A DNA stretch of 64,000 nucleotides, taken from positions 15,300 through 79,299 of IMG/VR virus record IMGVR_UViG_3300025133_006719, one strand, 5' to 3'. The notes under the pieces were generated by a model, which ran no database searches, had not been told where the DNA came from, and was given only the letters and a program-made list of their open reading frames with translations. This document shows, piece by piece, positions 32,653 through 62,621 of this stretch; position 1 is the stretch's first letter, and each line of letters opens with the position of its first letter. The position numbers and the translations under genes are program-made. Source of the DNA: a virus.

Positions 32653-32729
32653 GCCCCGATAGCTCAATTGGACAGAGCATCTGCCTTCTAAGCAGAGGGT
32701 TTCTGGTTCGAGTCCAGATCGGGGTACCA
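32653..32729 (+). tRNA. tRNA-Arg(UCU)
   Basis: Acceptor GCCCCGA/TCGGGGT, anticodon arm TCTGC-CTTCTAA-GCAGA, GGTTCGAGTCC T-arm, encoded CCA. Confidence 0.97.
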
Positions 32730-58992: not shown

Positions 58993-59008
58993 GACGATGT
59001 TTTTTTTG

Positions 59009-59037
59009 TTGACATGTTGGTTGGTGTATGTTATAAT
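59009..59037 (+). promoter_or_regulatory. consensus sigma70 promoter
   Basis: TTGACA-17-TATAAT with extended TG. Confidence 0.85.
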
Positions 59038-59043
59038 GCCCCC

Positions 59044-59166
59044 ATGAAAAAGAAAGTGACAGCTAAACCACGCGCCAAGGTTGATTGGAATACTGGTGAA
59101 CGTATACATCCACCCAAAAAGGGTAAAGGGTCATACAATCGTAAAAAAAGTAAAAAAAGTAGTTGA
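59044..59166 (+). CDS. ArfA-like alternative ribosome-rescue factor (40 aa, not in ORF track)
   Basis: MKKKVTAKPRAKVDWNTGERIHPPKKGKGSYNRKKSKKSS; KKGKGSYxRK ArfA signature; ATG at predicted TSS. Confidence 0.65.
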   Translation: MKKKVTAKPRAKVDWNTGERIHPPKKGKGSYNRKKSKKSS

Positions 59167-59201
59167 CTTTGATTACCCCGCGTGATATCATATTAAAAGT
59201 T

Positions 59202-59825
59202 ATGAGGGAATTCATTAGTTGGAAGGATGCAGGGCCACGCAAGATGATGGACGGCATCGAAGTCGCACCGGATCGCGTGAAGGTTTATTTCAATCTACAT
59301 TTGGATTGCCTGTCGGTGATCGACGCCGAGACGGGATTGCTTTATTGTCACGCTCATCGTGTTGAATTGCGTGATGCAAAGTTTAGGGTGCAGGAGGCGG
59401 GTCGCCAGCGAGTCCTTCGGGAAAAGCGTAAGAATGTTCACGCCTACGTTGTTGGAAAATGTCATGAGATTGGTGACGTTTCCAAAGAACGCTTTCGCGA
59501 GGTTGATAATGAGTTATACGAGAAGTACAGCATCTGTGATTGCGGCGACAAACCATACGACTACTGCGAGCAATGTGTGCCAGAGTCAGGCGAGGAGTTT
59601 CGCGGAGGATATTATAATCCTTACAAGTTCAAAACCTTTGTTGATGACATTAACAAAACGCCGATCTACAAGTCGAGCAGGGTGATGATCCGAGACAAGA
59701 CAGCCATAGGGCCGCACTACAACATCTTTTACATACCAGAGCCAAAGAAGAAAAGAGAGCCTTGGAACAAAGGTATGAAGTATACCCATAGAGGGTTACG
59801 AGCAAGAAAACTATCACAAGTATGA
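59202..59825 (+). CDS. conserved phage protein
   Basis: VYFNLH, GR.RVLREKRKNVHAYV, YNPYK; promoter TTGACT-17-TATCAT at 59163. Confidence 0.7.
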   Translation: MREFISWKDAGPRKMMDGIEVAPDRVKVYFNLHLDCLSVIDAETGLLYCHAHRVELRDAKFRVQEAGRQRVLREKRKNVHAYVVGKCHEIGDVSKERFREVDNELYEKYSICDCGDKPYDYCEQCVPESGEEFRGGYYNPYKFKTFVDDINKTPIYKSSRVMIRDKTAIGPHYNIFYIPEPKKKREPWNKGMKYTHRGLRARKLSQV

Positions 59826-60145
59826 GTTGGTATCCAAACGATTGTCAGGAATGCGGTAAGCCCATCGAAGGCGACTGGGAGAGTCAGATCGCTCTCGGAA
59901 TAGAGACGGGTGAAATTACAGATAGGCCAAGCAACCGCTTGTTTATCTATGACAAGCATATCCGTTGTTCTCCTAGTAGGGCGCAGCGGATAGTCCACCC
60001 CGACTTTCCTCCGGTGGTCGATGAGCGACCACAGTTTGATTGGCGGCGGGATGATGGACCTTGGGATGATGGGATGCGGAAGAAGTACAAGAAACTCTAC
60101 ACAGAGGCTTGGGTAAGACTCCAAGAAAAAAGGGTTGACAAGTAA
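59822..60145 (+). CDS. hypothetical protein with CxxC
   Basis: CQECG...HIRC. Confidence 0.6.
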   Translation: MSWYPNDCQECGKPIEGDWESQIALGIETGEITDRPSNRLFIYDKHIRCSPSRAQRIVHPDFPPVVDERPQFDWRRDDGPWDDGMRKKYKKLYTEAWVRLQEKRVDK

Positions 60146-60173
60146 GCCCCCGTGTGGTAAGATTATTAAAGTT

Positions 60174-60434
60174 ATGACAAAACTAACAAACAAACTAAAG
60201 GAAAAGGTTCGAGCTTGGCTCAACATTAGAGAGAGAGTTACTGACTATGTGATGGTCTACTCTCCAGAGAAACACGCAACCAAAGTCTACTACCTCAAAG
60301 GCACTCGGAGAGGCTGGAGTCCCTTATACAAGGATCAAAAGGAAGTAGGCTTCAAGGCTAGGGTTTACAACCGCGATTTACAGGTCAGAAGTTTTAGGGC
60401 TGACAGGATAGTTTCTTTAGCTGCACGAAGTTAA
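60174..60434 (+). CDS. WYL-domain-like small protein
   Basis: RSFRADRI motif; promoter TTGACA-17-TAAGAT at 60135. Confidence 0.6.
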   Translation: MTKLTNKLKEKVRAWLNIRERVTDYVMVYSPEKHATKVYYLKGTRRGWSPLYKDQKEVGFKARVYNRDLQVRSFRADRIVSLAARS

Positions 60435-60444
60435 AAGAAAGGGG

Positions 60445-60472
60445 TTGACAACTCTGCCCCATCTGGTAAGAT
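60445..60472 (+). promoter_or_regulatory. promoter of ncRNA operon
   Basis: TTGACA-16-TAAGAT with GCCCC spacer and extended TG. Confidence 0.75.
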
Positions 60473-60584
60473 TAATGAGTTGTTATTGTTCATGTTAACG
60501 TAGTGGGTTATGGTTAAGAGTCAGGCAGGGCTGACTTAAAAGATTAGGGCGGGAACGCATTGCTAATCACCCCCTGACACTTTT

Positions 60585-60597
60585 TGTTCTTTGAAAA
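60585..60597 (+). promoter_or_regulatory. boxA-like antitermination element
   Basis: TGTTCTTTGAAAA. Confidence 0.6.
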
Positions 60598-60600
60598 TTT

Positions 60601-60749
60601 GCTCTTGAGTTTGCAGTCAGATCTGGGCGGTTGCACCGACATGCTTCTTCGCCCTCTCTCACAACCTAAAAAAACTCGGACTCGCGTCTAGCGTCGGAAA
60701 AGCGTTAACTCGTTTTGAAAAGGTTAGATATTAGAGTTTCCTCAAGAGC
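60601..60749 (+). ncRNA. structured ncRNA domain B (unidentified)
   Basis: Closed by perfect 9-bp GCTCTTGAG/CTCAAGAGC; internal GGGCG/CGCCC and AACCT/AGGTT. Confidence 0.6.
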
Positions 60750-60757
60750 GATCAATT

Positions 60758-60909
60758 TGAGTTGGCGAGTAAATTGGCTTTTAAGCCGACAACGCCTCCA
60801 TCGCCCTAAGCTATAAACGCGCTGGGACAGGGATGGTAAGACATTTTACGCGACTGCGCTTGCAATACAGCGCGATCACACTACTGGTGGCGCGGTAGCA
60901 ACTCATTCA
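60758..60909 (+). ncRNA. structured ncRNA domain C (unidentified, multibranch)
   Basis: 7-bp TGAGTTG/CAACTCA closing stem with internal GTAAA/TTTAC, CCATC/GATGG, GCGCT/AGCGC, CTAC/GTAG stems. Confidence 0.6.
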
Positions 60910-60914
60910 ATTTT

Positions 60915-61100
60915 TCTCACTCGACGGAGTGAGATCGGTGTGACGGAATAATCCCTCCCAAAGGGGTAACGTAGCGACTGCGAGAAGTACAACGGCCTAG
61001 TGGCAGAGGAAAATCGCGGGTGAGTCCGAAGTAAGTCGATCTGAAACATTTGTTTTCTGGGGACTGAAAAGGTGCGGGTACACAAATACTCCCGCCACCA
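60915..61100 (+). ncRNA. structured ncRNA domain D (possibly manA-motif-like)
   Basis: TCTCACTC/GAGTGAGA, GATCGG/TCGATC, TGCGA/TCGCG stems; 3' GGTGCGGG..CCCGCCACCA then T8. Confidence 0.55.
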
Positions 61101-61114
61101 TTTTTTTTAATATA

Positions 61115-61312
61115 ATGACATACTATAAGTGTTGCGAATGTGATAAGATTTTTGAATGGGATGAGGATGTTCGTCCCCATCATACAGATAATTTATTGTG
61201 TGATGATTGTGGCAGCGCAGATTGGTCTAAAAGGCCCTTAATAGTAAACAAATGGAGTTTGATGAGTTATACAAAGAAACAATTAAAGCATTTGAACAAG
61301 AAGAGCAAATGA
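61115..61312 (+). CDS. small Zn-finger protein
   Basis: CCEC...CDDC. Confidence 0.6.
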   Translation: MTYYKCCECDKIFEWDEDVRPHHTDNLLCDDCGSADWSKRPLIVNKWSLMSYTKKQLKHLNKKSK

Positions 61313-61527
61313 AAACAAAACATTTACAAAAGAAGGCCGCGAAGAAGAAGGTCACGCGACAAGTTAAGCATGATAAGATTGTCATGCGGGATCATGTTCG
61401 GGGTGAGATGAAGAGGCACATTGAGTATCAAATCAAATCCCTTCGGCAAAGAAACGCAGCCGATTGCGACGTCGTTGCGTTCATAAATAAGAAGTTCGCG
61501 CAAATACGTCAAATAATATCAGAGTAG
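61309..61527 (+). CDS. hypothetical basic protein
   Basis: Coupled ORF. Confidence 0.55.
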   Translation: MKTKHLQKKAAKKKVTRQVKHDKIVMRDHVRGEMKRHIEYQIKSLRQRNAADCDVVAFINKKFAQIRQIISE

Positions 61528-61536
61528 GTAATCCGC

Positions 61537-61609
61537 TTAAACCGCTAAGCCGCAACGGTTTAGCAGGGGCGCAGCCGCAAACGCAAGCCATTGATGATCA
61601 ACGACTTAC
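61537..61609 (+). repeat. composite palindromic site R4
   Basis: TTAAACCGCTAA-GCC-GCAACGGTTTAG, 19-bp core with GCGCAGCCGC, GCAAGCCATTGA-TGA-TCAACGACTTAC. Confidence 0.8.
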
Positions 61610-61774
61610 GCGCTCTACCGCAGTAAAGACCACGGGGTGATAATACTTCGGGCCGATCCGTTGATGGTTCTTTTGGAATTTGATAATCGCCTCCTCTTCA
61701 AACCATGCGCGTACTTCTATCTTGTCGCCTTGGTTAGTTGTGAAAAGATAAGTGTTGCGTATGTCGTCGATCAT
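61598..61774 (-). CDS. hypothetical protein; stop codon lies inside R4
   Basis: Last codons CGC GTA AGT CGT TGA come from the palindrome arm. Confidence 0.55.
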   Translation of the reverse strand: MIDDIRNTYLFTTNQGDKIEVRAWFEEEAIIKFQKNHQRIGPKYYHPVVFTAVERVSR

Positions 61775-61776
61775 TT

Positions 61777-61953
61777 TCAATATCCGTTGTAAGATACGGT
61801 TGTGCCATACTTCTTGCGCTTGGCATCAGCGGCCTTCCGCATGGTATCGTGGTAGGAGCCTTCGCTCCAGTCCGCTTTAGGGTATTGAGCTTCTGCCTCC
61901 TTGAGTTGTTTCACTCGCTCCCAGCTAGGCACGCCATATATCTGGTCTTTCAT
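61777..61953 (-). CDS. hypothetical protein (58 aa)
   Basis: Coupled ORF MKDQIYGVPSWERV... Confidence 0.55.
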   Translation of the reverse strand: MKDQIYGVPSWERVKQLKEAEAQYPKADWSEGSYHDTMRKAADAKRKKYGTTVSYNGY

Positions 61954-62153
61954 AGTGGCATAGTCCAGTTACAGTATGATCCTGACGCACACCTTTCGCA
62001 TACTGGTACGGCTGTGCCATCATCATCTGTATTTAGCTCACAGCTAGACATAGGGAACCAGCCATTACATGAGTAACATTTGGCTGCGTCCTCATCGTCT
62101 TGTAGGTGGATAACCTGTGTGGATACGTCATCCCATGTGATGTTATCGTTCAT
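61950..62153 (-). CDS. small Zn-finger protein
   Basis: CYSC...CERC; GGAGG SD. Confidence 0.6.
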   Translation of the reverse strand: MNDNITWDDVSTQVIHLQDDEDAAKCYSCNGWFPMSSCELNTDDDGTAVPVCERCASGSYCNWTMPL

Positions 62154-62380
62154 GCGTCCACCTCCGTTTCGTTTTCCCAAGGGCTGTCCGCAGTATAGTG
62201 GTTACTGTCCCAATTAAATGAGAAGTATTCGTTAAAGAGGGCCAAGTTGAATTTTGACTCTATACTCTCGGTTTTGGCTGCTGCTTGTAGTATTTCCCTC
62301 ATAGAATTAAGCCTTCTCCGCATCTCCTCTGTTCCCGCTTTTGTTCGCGGCCTCATCCAATCATCATCTATTTGTTTCAT
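62150..62380 (-). CDS. hypothetical protein
   Basis: Coupled ORF. Confidence 0.55.
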   Translation of the reverse strand: MKQIDDDWMRPRTKAGTEEMRRRLNSMREILQAAAKTESIESKFNLALFNEYFSFNWDSNHYTADSPWENETEVDA

Positions 62381-62381
62381 A

Positions 62382-62621
62382 TCAGTTGTCGGTGTACATT
62401 ACGTCATAAAGAGTTTCCTGAACTTTTTTGAGCCTTCTATCTGCTTGCGTCAATGTAGCATGAGCTTGCTCTTCGCTACATAAGCCGCCGAGGTTGTTGG
62501 TCAGAAAGGTCAAGCCGCCTCTTACTTGCGCGATTTTTCCAGTTAATTTTGCCAGATCGATGTCCGTGCTGAAGCGTTTACTTTTGTAGTTATAATCATT
62601 CATGTTTTTTTTCTCACTCAC
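62382..62621 (-). CDS. hypothetical protein
   Basis: Promoter TTGACT-17-TAGAAT (62657-62629, minus). Confidence 0.6.
   Translation of the reverse strand: MSEKKNMNDYNYKSKRFSTDIDLAKLTGKIAQVRGGLTFLTNNLGGLCSEEQAHATLTQADRRLKKVQETLYDVMYTDN

What the first reader, a model, noticed from the sequence alone, without database searches (positions are those of the whole stretch)
60445..61108. About 620-nt operon of tandem structured non-coding RNAs with its own promoter, boxA and terminator
Seen in sequence: a strong promoter (TTGACA-16-TAAGAT) is followed by no + strand ORF of 60 aa or more for about 640 nt, in a genome that is otherwise nearly all coding. A boxA-like TGTTCTTTGAAAA precedes three GC-richer self-closed domains separated by short A/U linkers, like a phage tRNA array. 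Domain B is 60601-60749 with a 9-bp closing helix. Domain C is 60758-60905 with a 7-bp acceptor-like helix, an expanded first arm, a 5-bp arm and a hairpin stacked on the 3' strand, giving tRNA-like topology without tRNA sequence consensus. Domain D is 60915-61100, ending ...CCACCA followed by T8. Established: boxA/Nus antitermination serves stable-RNA operons, and phages carry large ncRNAs (manA, GOLLD, ROOL motifs). From memory only, domain D (GTGTGACGGAATAA...GGTGCGGG..CCCGCCACC) resembles the manA motif; I recognise nothing for B and C. Inference: processed stable RNAs, possibly tRNA mimics or decoys of host defence nucleases, carried inside one repeat-bounded module.
Basis: partly seen in the sequence, partly recalled or inferred. 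Interest (0 to 1): 0.8.

Follow-up and report, generated by a model that had tools for sequence, protein, structure and literature searches.

The report
Modular phage RNA array ending in manA-like RNA
This gene-free 650-base stretch of an uncultured marine phage is a real, promoter-driven chain of separately folding RNA modules that ends in an uncatalogued relative of the known "manA" RNA. That RNA is very abundant in one ocean RNA data set, so it looks more like a product in its own right than a switch.

Summary
Behind a consensus sigma-70 promoter (60445-60472) lie about 640 nt without a plausible ORF, made of self-closed modules.

- **Module A (60520-60576):** an H-type pseudoknot, followed by a conserved boxA-like element (60585-60597).
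- **Modules B (60601-60749) and C (60758-60905):** conserved structured RNAs that match no Rfam family.
- **Module D (60915-61100):** a divergent manA RNA. It scores 42.7 bits against RF01745 (E 1.8e-9), below the gathering score of 55.2; canonical cyanophage copies score 120-197.

I collected 102 distinct contexts from marine viral and metagenome contigs. A, C and D show compensatory base changes well above controls, and B shows them in its closing stem. Module content and order vary between contigs: D alone, A-boxA-C-D, A-boxA-B-C-D, A-D-C. Some arrays end at canonical terminators.

In 78 of 97 contexts a small basic-protein gene starts 11-17 nt after D.

In one vent metatranscriptome a relative's D contig has depth about 2,900, against 6-17 for the adjacent C.

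Most likely this is a processed stable-RNA array with a leaky end. A cis-regulatory leader is the main rival, and the function is unknown.

This scan has already found the same family on other DNA (e1-5900047, e1-5913328). In the literature, only the manA core is known.

The parts
60445..60472 (+). Sigma-70-type promoter TTGACA-16-TAAGAT with extended -10 TG. The transcription start is inferred near 60479.
   Evidence: A near-identical promoter copy lies at 60135-60163. Relatives carry an equivalent promoter upstream of their arrays.
60520..60576 (+). Module A, an H-type pseudoknot. S1 pairs 60520-60524 with 60531-60535. S2 pairs 60526-60530 with 60572-60576. An optional hairpin (60542-60568, GGAA loop) sits inside loop 3.
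   Evidence: 33 unique variants. S1 pair 4 is AU, UA, GC or UG. The S2 variable pair is AU in 24 and UA in 9, with no mismatch. The inserted hairpin covaries (GCG/CGC, GUA/UAC, GCA/UGC) and is absent in some relatives.
60585..60597 (+). boxA-like element TGTTCTTTGAAAA.
   Evidence: G(C/T)T(C/T)TTT(G/T)A is present in 51 of 58 arrays that carry C. One search shows it following A in nearly all unique A contexts. Variants include TGCTCTTTGAAAA (L083) and CGCTCTTTGAATTT (L065, L068). Function is inferred.
60601..60749 (+). Module B, a self-closed structured RNA with a 9-bp closing helix (60601-60609 with 60741-60749).
   Evidence: 12 full-length variants of 135-194 nt, always between boxA and C or another module. 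The closing stem covaries (CUCUUGAG, UUCUUGAG, CUUUUGAG with matching 3' strands). nhmmer finds a single copy in the genome, E 4e-36. MFE z -2.5. No Rfam match.
60758..60905 (+). Module C, a three-way-junction RNA. P1 pairs 60759-60764 with 60899-60904. P4 pairs 60881-60884 with 60895-60898 and carries the invariant loop UGGUGGCGCG (60885-60894). Peripheral hairpins are variable.
   Evidence: 57 unique sequences in two subtypes. On alignment A2, 100% of cells are paired, 7 of 10 pairs are compensatory and 0 of 500 shuffles match. P2 and P3 covary within the short subtype. No Rfam, tRNA or wcaG match.
60915..61100 (+). Module D, a divergent manA-type RNA. Helices: P1 60915-22/60927-34; pseudoknot 60937-40/61096-99; P2 60943-44/60971-72 and 60951-55/60963-67; P3 60975-82/61015-22; P3a 60995-97/61002-04; P4 61034-37/61062-65; P4a 61043-47/61052-56; P5 61074-78/61091-95. 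A candidate loop-to-junction contact pairs 60957-60 with 61058-61.
   Evidence: RF01745 at 42.7 bits, E 1.8e-9, model positions 1-192. 87 unique homologues. Covariation. Tertiary contact. RNA contig of depth 2,925 on 60954-61097.
61101..61108 (+). U-run after D. With P5 extended by 61071-73/61097-99 it forms a candidate leaky intrinsic terminator.
   Evidence: Fold of 61066-61108 gives -13 kcal/mol, z -3.2. The simple terminator scan does not call it. A U/A-rich run is present in nearly all contexts. RNA contigs read through it.
61115..61312 (+). 65-aa Cys-rich (zinc-ribbon-like) ORF inserted between D and the conserved basic-protein gene.
   Evidence: Weak Pfam Zn_ribbon_8 match, E 7e-4, below cut-off. 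Present in the window, L185 and (truncated by a deletion) L142, and absent from the other relatives.
61252..61527 (+). 91-aa small basic helical protein (K-T-K-H...KKAxKKK motif). In relatives this gene starts 11-17 nt after D.
   Evidence: 78 of 97 contexts. No Pfam, PHROG or PDB family. AF2 model is four helices, pLDDT 81, with no fold match.

Best explanation
This is an early phage transcription unit that makes a chain of independently folding non-coding RNA modules: 5' leader, pseudoknot A, boxA-like element, B, C and manA-type D.

**Shown**
- The modules are real, conserved structures.
- They are shuffled, lost and gained as units between related phages.
- RNA contigs in metatranscriptomes bridge boxA-C-D.
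- In one sample D alone reaches a very high level and ends close to the end of D (61096/61097).

**Inferred**
- Host RNA polymerase starts at the sigma-70 promoter.
- The boxA-like leader recruits Nus factors, as in rRNA operons and CRISPR arrays, so that the long untranslated transcript escapes Rho.
- The conserved AAUUU linkers (which fit the RNase E preference RN|WUU) are cut to release the modules.
- D, like canonical manA RNAs in vitro, builds higher-order RNA assemblies.
- The P5 hairpin plus U-run is a leaky terminator or processing site. Read-through transcripts would then also express the downstream small proteins.

The biological role of the RNAs is not known. My best guess is a structural or sequestering RNA made early in infection.
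For: 1. **Structure and conservation.** (covariation for A, C and D with controls; B closing-stem covariation by inspection).
2. **Modularity.** D stands alone directly behind a promoter in L004, L007, L045, L056, L093 and L097. Other arrangements are A-boxA-C-D, A-boxA-B-C-D, and A-D-C in L020, L033, L129, L131, L162 and L192. Extra modules X and Y occur elsewhere.
3. **Arrays that cannot be leaders.** In L028, L065, L125 and L236 the array ends at a canonical GC-hairpin/T7-8 terminator followed by a new promoter; L145 also ends at a canonical terminator.
4. **boxA-like element.** Present in 51 of 58 C-bearing arrays and absent from the promoter-proximal D-only units seen.
5. **Metatranscriptome X15.** A 164-nt contig of a relative's D (60954-61097) has depth 2,925 and runs straight into Illumina adapter. 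Contigs on the same relative's C have depth about 6, and the downstream gene has 4 or less. Contigs X15 record 6 and X17 record 19 bridge the C-D and boxA-C-D junctions.
6. **Linkers.** AAUUU lies within 14 nt before D in 93 of 101 contexts.
7. **manA self-assembly.** manA RNAs form 8-, 10- and 60-mers in vitro (bioRxiv 10.64898/2026.07.01.735769).
8. **manA next to tRNA.** In 2 of 18 canonical cyanophage loci a tRNA gene follows manA within 3-8 nt, which is the arrangement of a stable-RNA operon.
Against: - In 78 of 97 contexts the start codon of one conserved small gene lies 11-17 nt after D with no Shine-Dalgarno. This is what a cis-acting leader would look like.
- Read-through RNA contigs exist (X16, 61078-61162).
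- The abundance evidence is one contig in one sample. It is measured as contig k-mer depth, comes from a relative rather than this phage, and its 5' end cannot be placed.
- Most copies of the boxA-like element read GUUCUUUGA. This differs from the gamma-proteobacterial GCUCUUUAA, and the host is unknown.
- No processing site, Nus dependence or assembly has been shown for this RNA.
- D lies below the Rfam threshold, so transferring the in vitro behaviour of canonical manA to it is an extrapolation.
Confidence: 0.55

Rival explanations
1. The array is a cis-regulatory 5' leader. The whole array, or at least C plus D, would be the structured 5' UTR of the small basic-protein gene. It would set that gene's expression through alternative pairings of the 3' tail CGCCACCA, in the manner of a riboswitch, attenuator or thermosensor. 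The tail can pair with D's distal GGUG (the manA pseudoknot). It can pair with the proximal GGU (61071-73), which extends P5 into a terminator next to the U-run. It can also pair with the C loop UGGUGGCG.
For: - D and the basic-protein gene are linked in 78 of 97 contexts, with an 11-17 nt spacing and no SD.
- The pseudoknot 3' strand and the terminator extension are mutually exclusive.
- The C loop is complementary to the D tail: 8/8 Watson-Crick in 31 contexts and 7/8 in 18.
- manA was originally proposed as a riboswitch candidate in 5' UTRs (PMC2864571).
- A terminated or processed leader remnant could also accumulate.
Against: - Some arrays end at strong terminators with no gene behind them, and some have A-D-C order.
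- The middle pair of the terminator extension is lost in 16 of 86 variants.
- D is about 500-fold deeper than the upstream C of the same relative, which a simple terminated leader does not explain.
- Canonical manA sits directly before tRNA genes in some phages and self-assembles in vitro.
- No ligand is known 16 years after the motif was described.
Confidence: 0.27
2. The RNAs are tRNA-end mimics or tRNA-end binders. D would be processed to end in ...CCACCA and would present a tRNA-like acceptor end. The invariant C loop UGGUGG would bind NCCA 3' ends, as T-box bulges and the RNase P P15 loop do. The RNAs would then titrate or decoy host tRNA-handling or tRNA-cleaving factors.
For: - The D tail CCACCA is nearly invariant, and the C loop UGGUGGYGCG is invariant in 57 sequences.
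- The two are complementary.
- An abundant RNA contig ends at 61096/61097, inside this tail.
- Pairing of UGGN or GG with NCCA ends in T-box and RNase P RNAs is established knowledge, cited from memory.
Against: - ARAGORN and the Rfam tRNA and tmRNA models find nothing here.
- The tail is already accounted for as the 3' strand of the manA pseudoknot.
- The C loop has an equally good partner inside C: CGCCUCC or UACCCCU, with the Y position pairing C-G in 26 of 26 and U-A or U.G in 31 of 31.
- The observed RNA end lies 3-4 nt short of a CCA end.
Confidence: 0.08
3. The stretch is not an RNA feature. It would instead be a DNA-level element such as a recombination cassette, or it would hide small or antisense ORFs.
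For: - The minus strand of D is free of stop codons in two frames in 66-67 of 86 variants.
- ORFs of 60 and 88 aa are listed on the minus strand.
Against: - Two or three minus-strand frames are open at once, which points to base composition rather than coding.
- D lengths differ by non-multiples of three (176-187 nt).
- The substitutions are compensatory within helices.
- RNA libraries hold the + strand modules.
Confidence: 0.03

Closest known systems
manA RNA motif (Rfam RF01745; Weinberg et al. 2010, PMC2864571; cryo-EM assemblies in Ren et al. 2026, bioRxiv 10.64898/2026.07.01.735769)
   Same: Module D aligns to the whole model, positions 1-192. Shared features are the P1 hairpin with a GACG loop, the conserved GUGAC-GAAUAA strand, a P2 hairpin enclosed by a 2-bp helix, the 3' hairpin with a GGUA...AAUA.UCC loop, and the 5'/3' pseudoknot. 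The overall topology P1-PK-P2-P3-P4-P5 is also the same. Like many manA RNAs it sits just upstream of a gene in a marine phage.
   Different: D scores 42.7 bits against 120-197 for canonical cyanophage copies, and below the gathering score of 55.2. The central P3 and P4 stems are not alignable in sequence. The pseudoknot is GGUG/CACC rather than GGGAG/CUCCC. The carriers are non-cyanophage marine phages with sigma-70 promoters. D is usually chained to other modules behind a boxA-like leader and tied to one small basic-protein gene. Self-assembly has not been tested for this variant.
boxA/Nus antitermination leaders of rRNA operons, lambda nut sites and CRISPR arrays
   Same: A U-rich element of the form (U)G(C/U)UCUUUGA sits early in a long untranslated, highly structured transcript, just after a stem-loop or pseudoknot. 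Variants such as TGCTCTTTGAAAA match 11 of 13 positions of the E. coli rrn boxA TGCTCTTTAACAA.
   Different: The commonest form has U where enterobacterial boxA has C. No Nus binding or Rho dependence has been tested. The host, and therefore its own boxA, is unknown. GTTCTTTGAAAAC is used as a primer for mycoplasma 16S-23S spacer PCR in papers returned. That it is the Firmicutes/Mollicutes boxA is from memory.
Phage stable-RNA operons (tRNA arrays; T4 tRNA cluster with its stable species 1 and 2 RNAs), cited from memory
   Same: Several compact structured RNAs are made in tandem from one promoter. They are separated by short A/U linkers, and module content varies between related phages.
   Different: No module here is a tRNA or tRNA-like by ARAGORN or Rfam. 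Processing has not been shown. The array usually runs into a protein gene.
wcaG RNA motif (RF01761), the other cyanophage 'riboswitch candidate'
   Same: The published wcaG alignment contains the 10-mer UGGUGGUGCG in 9 places. It also begins with a hairpin, a UAAAA stretch and CCCUGG, an arrangement reminiscent of modules A and C.
   Different: The wcaG covariance model finds nothing in this genome even at E 10, nor in the permissive Rfam scan. The resemblance is a lead, not homology.
GOLLD and ROOL large phage ncRNAs
   Same: They are phage-borne, highly structured non-coding RNAs of several hundred nt, often near tRNAs.
   Different: There is no Rfam match. Here the length comes from separable modules whose order can change, not from one large fold.

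Membership tests
manA RNA (RF01745) | Covariance-model score at or above Rfam's gathering score (55.2 bits) | tested here: not met
   42.7 bits, E 1.8e-9, full-length alignment. Relatives score 38-52 bits. Canonical copies score 120-197 bits.
manA RNA (RF01745) | P1 hairpin (GACG loop), then the pseudoknot 5' strand and the conserved GUGAC-GAAUAA strand | tested here: met
   Alignment. P1 covaries at 4 of 8 pairs. GGTGTG and GAA are invariant or nearly so in 20 sequences.
manA RNA (RF01745) | P2 hairpin enclosed by a short outer helix with UAA on the 3' side | tested here: met
   The outer pair is A-U in 52 and G-C in 24 of 86 sequences. The inner stem covaries.
manA RNA (RF01745) | Central multi-stem region (the model's two further stems) | tested here: inconclusive
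   The model could not align these stems (marked v). Helices P3, P3a, P4 and P4a in the same positions are supported by covariation. Topology therefore agrees but sequence does not.
manA RNA (RF01745) | 3' hairpin followed by the pseudoknot 3' strand | tested here: met
   P5 covaries at two pairs (CG/UA; GC/UA/AU). The pseudoknot GGUG/CACC is invariant in 86 sequences, so it is compatible but unproven by covariation.
manA RNA (RF01745) | Homo-oligomeric assembly through kissing loops (Ren et al. 2026) | not testable with these tools
   No obvious self-complementary loop was found by eye. SEC or cryo-EM is needed.
wcaG RNA (RF01761), considered for modules A and C | Match to the covariance model | tested here: not met
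   No match in the genome at E up to 10. None in the permissive scan of 60300-61250.
tRNA or tRNA-like, considered for module C | Cloverleaf with D/T-loop consensus detectable by ARAGORN or Rfam tRNA | tested here: not met
   The only tRNA in the window is at 32653-32729. Nothing at 60758-60905 even at E 10.
boxA/Nus antitermination site | Sequence close to the boxA consensus at a conserved place early in an untranslated transcript | tested here: inconclusive
   It is conserved after pseudoknot A in 51 of 58 C-bearing arrays. The window copy matches 9 of 13 positions of the E. coli rrn boxA, and L083's copy matches 11 of 13 (consensus from memory). The host's boxA is unknown.
boxA/Nus antitermination site | Binding of NusB-NusE and Rho-resistant transcription | not testable with these tools
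   Requires biochemistry or genetics.
Intrinsic terminator | GC-rich hairpin immediately followed by a U-run | tested here: inconclusive
   The scan does not call it because the loop is 12 nt. The extended hairpin folds at -13 kcal/mol, z -3.2, and ends 1 nt before U8. The extension is imperfect in 16 of 86 variants. Read-through RNA contigs exist.
Riboswitch | Ligand-dependent alternative structures that control a downstream gene | not testable with these tools
   Mutually exclusive pairings of the 3' tail exist, but no ligand or switching has been shown.
GOLLD / ROOL | Match to the Rfam models | tested here: not met
   No match at E up to 10.

The most novel reading that the evidence does not exclude
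manA-type RNAs and at least three uncatalogued RNA families (pseudoknot A, B and C, plus modules X and Y in relatives) would form a combinatorial 'RNA operon' system of marine phages, transcribed under rRNA-style antitermination. Its products would work together. The invariant C loop would dock on the invariant CCACCA tail of D (8-nt complementarity), and the always-linked small basic protein would join them. The result would be a phage-made RNA or RNA-protein particle, not a gene switch.
Probability: 0.15. Interest if true: 0.85.

Novelty: new variant of a known kind. Interest (0 to 1): 0.62.

Why it matters
manA has been an orphan 'riboswitch candidate' since 2010, and a 2026 preprint shows that it builds RNA-only cages in vitro. 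What it does in a phage is an open question.

This locus and its roughly 100 relatives place a divergent manA RNA in a gene-like setting:
- it has its own promoter and an rRNA-style leader;
- it has interchangeable companion RNAs and, in some phages, its own terminators;
- in one environmental RNA data set it is very abundant as a discrete piece.

That argues for a product RNA and gives concrete, testable partners: module C, the AAUUU linkers and the small basic protein. It also adds well-supported new structured RNA families (A and C, plus B with weaker support) that Rfam lacks.

Tried and rejected
- **Folding energy.** Whole-region energy is not better than shuffles on either strand, so thermodynamics alone is uninformative.
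- **Cultured phage relatives.** blastn of the array and of a relative's array against 50,697 phage records found nothing. The DnaE-like protein has under 30% identity to any cultured phage. There is therefore no host or isolate to lean on.
- **Genome-collection scan.** It found only two MAG contigs, one labelled Enterobacterales and one Planctomycetaceae. This is too weak to name a host.
- **wcaG.** No model match.
- **Ocean-VI.** This motif is absent from Rfam. It was checked in the 2010 supplement and is AU-rich and unrelated.
- **Conserved terminator/antiterminator switch.** The proximal GGU is not conserved in the D2 and L068 subgroups. I keep this only as a rival.
- **Small basic protein.**
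  - No PHROG, Pfam, PDB-sequence, ESM Atlas or Foldseek match.
  - The AF2 model is a plain helical bundle.
- **Minus-strand ORFs.** Rejected as a composition effect.
- **Parts of the window without RNA-contig cover.** No conclusion is drawn, and the 5' end of the abundant D species could not be placed.
- **First C pattern scan.** It returned many coding false positives, which were discarded. L013 was a false hit of the first D pattern.
- **Loop-J contact control.** The shuffled-class control was not discriminating because most classes share CCC/GGG.
- **Complex prediction.** Not used, because no protein-protein claim is made.
Full report
**What is in the window**

The window is the last 64 kb of a 79.3-kb IMG/VR virus record estimated to be about 52% complete.

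At 60445-60472 lies TTGACA-16-TAAGAT with TG before the -10. A near-twin promoter sits 310 bp upstream.

From there to 61114 the + strand has no ORF longer than 35 aa.
- TGTTCTTTGAAAA at 60585-60597
- the 9-bp closing helix of B
- the closing helix of C
- D ending in CCACCA followed by T8

Neighbouring genes are uncharacterised early phage genes: L5 gp82-like, GP88 and DUF932. No cultured phage is close.

**Identity of domain D**

Rfam at gathering thresholds finds only one tRNA in the window. A permissive scan aligns 60917-61105 to the whole manA model (RF01745) at 42.7 bits, E 1.8e-9, below the gathering score of 55.2.

The parts that match are P1, the GUGAC-GAAUAA strand, P2, the 3' hairpin and the pseudoknot. 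The central stems do not align.

For scale, 18 canonical manA copies from cyanophage-like contigs score 122-197 bits. A related subgroup, L020, reaches 51.9 bits.

**Relatives and module structure**

I searched for related loci by flanking proteins and by DNA patterns in IMG/VR, JGI metagenomes and GTDB genomes. This gave 135 loci, 102 distinct contexts and 87 distinct D sequences, all marine.

*Module D.* My manual structure (10 helices, 48 pairs, two of them pseudoknotted) gives these counts on 20 sequences:
- 93.3% of cells paired, against 41-49% when partners are slid
- 18 pairs with compensatory changes
- 0 of 500 shuffles as good

The same holds on 86 sequences. A loop-to-junction contact changes in step across three subgroups: CCCA:UGGG, CCUA:UAGG and UCCAA:UUGGA. 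The topology P1-PK-P2-P3-P4-P5 is that of manA.

*Module C.* It has 57 distinct sequences in two subtypes. Variable hairpins are inserted at fixed points, and the 10-nt loop UGGUGGYGCG is invariant.
- P1 and P4 are paired in 540 of 540 cells.
- Compensatory changes occur at 7 of 10 pairs.
- No shuffle is as good as the observed structure.
- P2 and P3 covary within the short subtype.

*Module A.* It is an H-type pseudoknot. Its one variable S2 pair is A-U in 24 and U-A in 9 distinct sequences, never mismatched. An optional GNRA hairpin in loop 3 covaries as well.

*Module B.* It has 12 full-length variants whose closing stem covaries.

None of A, B or C matches Rfam 15. The wcaG model, which shares a 10-mer with C in its published alignment, finds nothing.

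**Architecture**

The modules behave as units. The arrangements seen are:
- D alone, about 50 nt behind a promoter
- D directly after a stop codon (L057)
- A-boxA-C-D
- A-boxA-B-C-D (the window)
- A-boxA-X-B-C-D, and A-Y-boxA-B plus a further module before C-D
- A-boxA-C-X-D
- A-D-C
- X-C-X without D

Other regularities:
- A boxA-like G(C/U)U(C/U)UUU(G/U)A follows A in 51 of 58 C-bearing arrays. It is absent from the promoter-proximal D-only units seen.
- AAUUU lies just before D in 93 of 101 contexts, and similar linkers separate the other modules.
- Downstream, 78 of 97 contexts have the ATG of one small basic helical protein 11-17 nt after CACCA, without a Shine-Dalgarno.
- Four contexts end at a canonical terminator followed by a new promoter (L145 too ends at a canonical terminator), five continue into C, and three continue into another module.
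- In the window, a 65-aa zinc-ribbon-like ORF has been inserted at the junction between D and this gene.

**Transcription**

Six RNA libraries hold parts of the stretch. I laid four of them on 59000-62600.
- RNA contigs bridge boxA-C-D (X17 record 19) and C-D (X15 record 6, identical to the window).
- One 164-nt contig of an L002/L015-type D covers 60954-61097 at k-mer depth 2,925. It continues directly into Illumina adapter, so most inserts end at 61096/61097.
- Contigs of the same variant on C have depth about 6, and the downstream gene has 4 or less.
- X16 holds low-depth contigs that read through the U-run.

These are contigs, not reads. They come from one sample and from a relative, and the 5' end is not defined. 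Even so, a roughly 500-fold step between adjacent modules is hard to explain without processing and differential stability, or an internal start.

**Mechanism**

I weigh three readings.

*Stable-RNA array with a leaky end (0.55).* This fits:
- the modularity
- the arrays with their own terminators
- the boxA-like leader, which follows the logic of rRNA operons and CRISPR arrays
- the abundance step between C and D
- canonical manA lying directly before tRNA genes
- the in vitro self-assembly of manA RNAs

*Cis-regulatory leader (0.27).* This fits the tight linkage between D and the gene, and the competing pairings of the tail CGCCACCA:
- with the distal GGUG (the pseudoknot)
- with the proximal GGU, which extends P5 to a -13 kcal/mol hairpin that ends 1 nt before U8
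- with the C loop, which is 8/8 complementary in 31 contexts

That loop has an equally consistent partner inside C, so its target is unresolved.

*tRNA-end mimic or binder (0.08).* This has no positive test.

A non-RNA explanation (0.03) is excluded by the covariation and by length differences that are not multiples of three.

**Comparison and novelty**

D works like, and is probably a distant member of, the manA class, but it fails Rfam's own threshold.

I could not find any of the following in the literature searched:
- modules A, B and C
- the boxA-like leader
- the shuffling of modules
- the link to the basic protein

Earlier follow-ups in this scan reached the same reading on other DNA of the same family (e1-5900047, e1-5913328). 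They also saw boxA-led manA genes elsewhere. I used these as leads only, and the tests above are my own.

Overall this is a new variant of a known kind, in an undescribed setting. It bears on the open question of what manA RNAs do.

Noticed in passing
window 60885-60892 and 61093-61100: The invariant loop of module C (UGGUGGCG) is the exact reverse complement of the last 8 nt of module D (CGCCACCA). Across arrays the match is 8/8 in 31 contexts, 7/8 in 18, has a G.U in 7, and has a C.A mismatch in 5. The loop also has a consistent partner inside C (CGCCUCC or UACCCCU). Which pairing is real is unresolved.
   Followed up: partly
L017:2171-2290 (- strand), L021:7290-7560, L022:6100-6210: A further recurrent self-closed module 'X' carries the motif UGCUA(G/U)UAAGAUGC and a UUGAUCGCC-like 3' motif. 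It is inserted at different places in the arrays, and in L021 it flanks C on both sides without D. It has no Rfam match.
   Followed up: partly
L002:4390-4450, L083 (about 480-560 nt upstream of D), L169, L225: Module 'Y' (GGUCGC...CUAGG...GGUAGCACCU...GCGACC) is inserted between pseudoknot A and the boxA-like element or C.
   Followed up: no
L183, L190, L234 (first 170 nt after D): In these contexts D is followed by another conserved non-coding stretch (GCCGGUGCUGGUAUGG...) instead of a gene. This may be one more module.
   Followed up: no
L054:5230-5400: Three tandem copies of a repeat of about 31 nt (GAGCGATTTAGTTTA...CTCAGTGCGTAC) lie between the promoter and D.
   Followed up: no
L272:2878-3155 (-), L287:2795-3072 (+); L241, L287: In canonical cyanophage-type contigs a tRNA gene follows manA within 3-8 nt. 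A glutamine riboswitch lies about 400 nt upstream of manA on the same strand.
   Followed up: partly
window 60123-60165 and 60433-60474: There are two near-identical promoter cassettes (AAAGGGGTTGACA...TGGTAAGATTA) 310 bp apart. The first drives the 99-aa gene that precedes the RNA array.
   Followed up: no
window 61115-61312: A 65-aa Cys-rich ORF is inserted exactly at the junction between D and the basic-protein gene, and the U-run-AAUAUAAUG context is kept. It occurs in two other contigs (L142, where it is truncated by a deletion, and L185).
   Followed up: partly
L238 (CAZSAT010000152.1): The only genome-collection hits for D are two MAG contigs, one labelled uncultured Enterobacterales. 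This is a weak hint at a gamma-proteobacterial host.
   Followed up: no
PMC2864571 supplement, wcaG.sto: The published wcaG alignment shows tandem wcaG copies next to tRNA genes. Its 5' hairpin-UAAAA-CCCUGG arrangement resembles pseudoknot A.
   Followed up: partly
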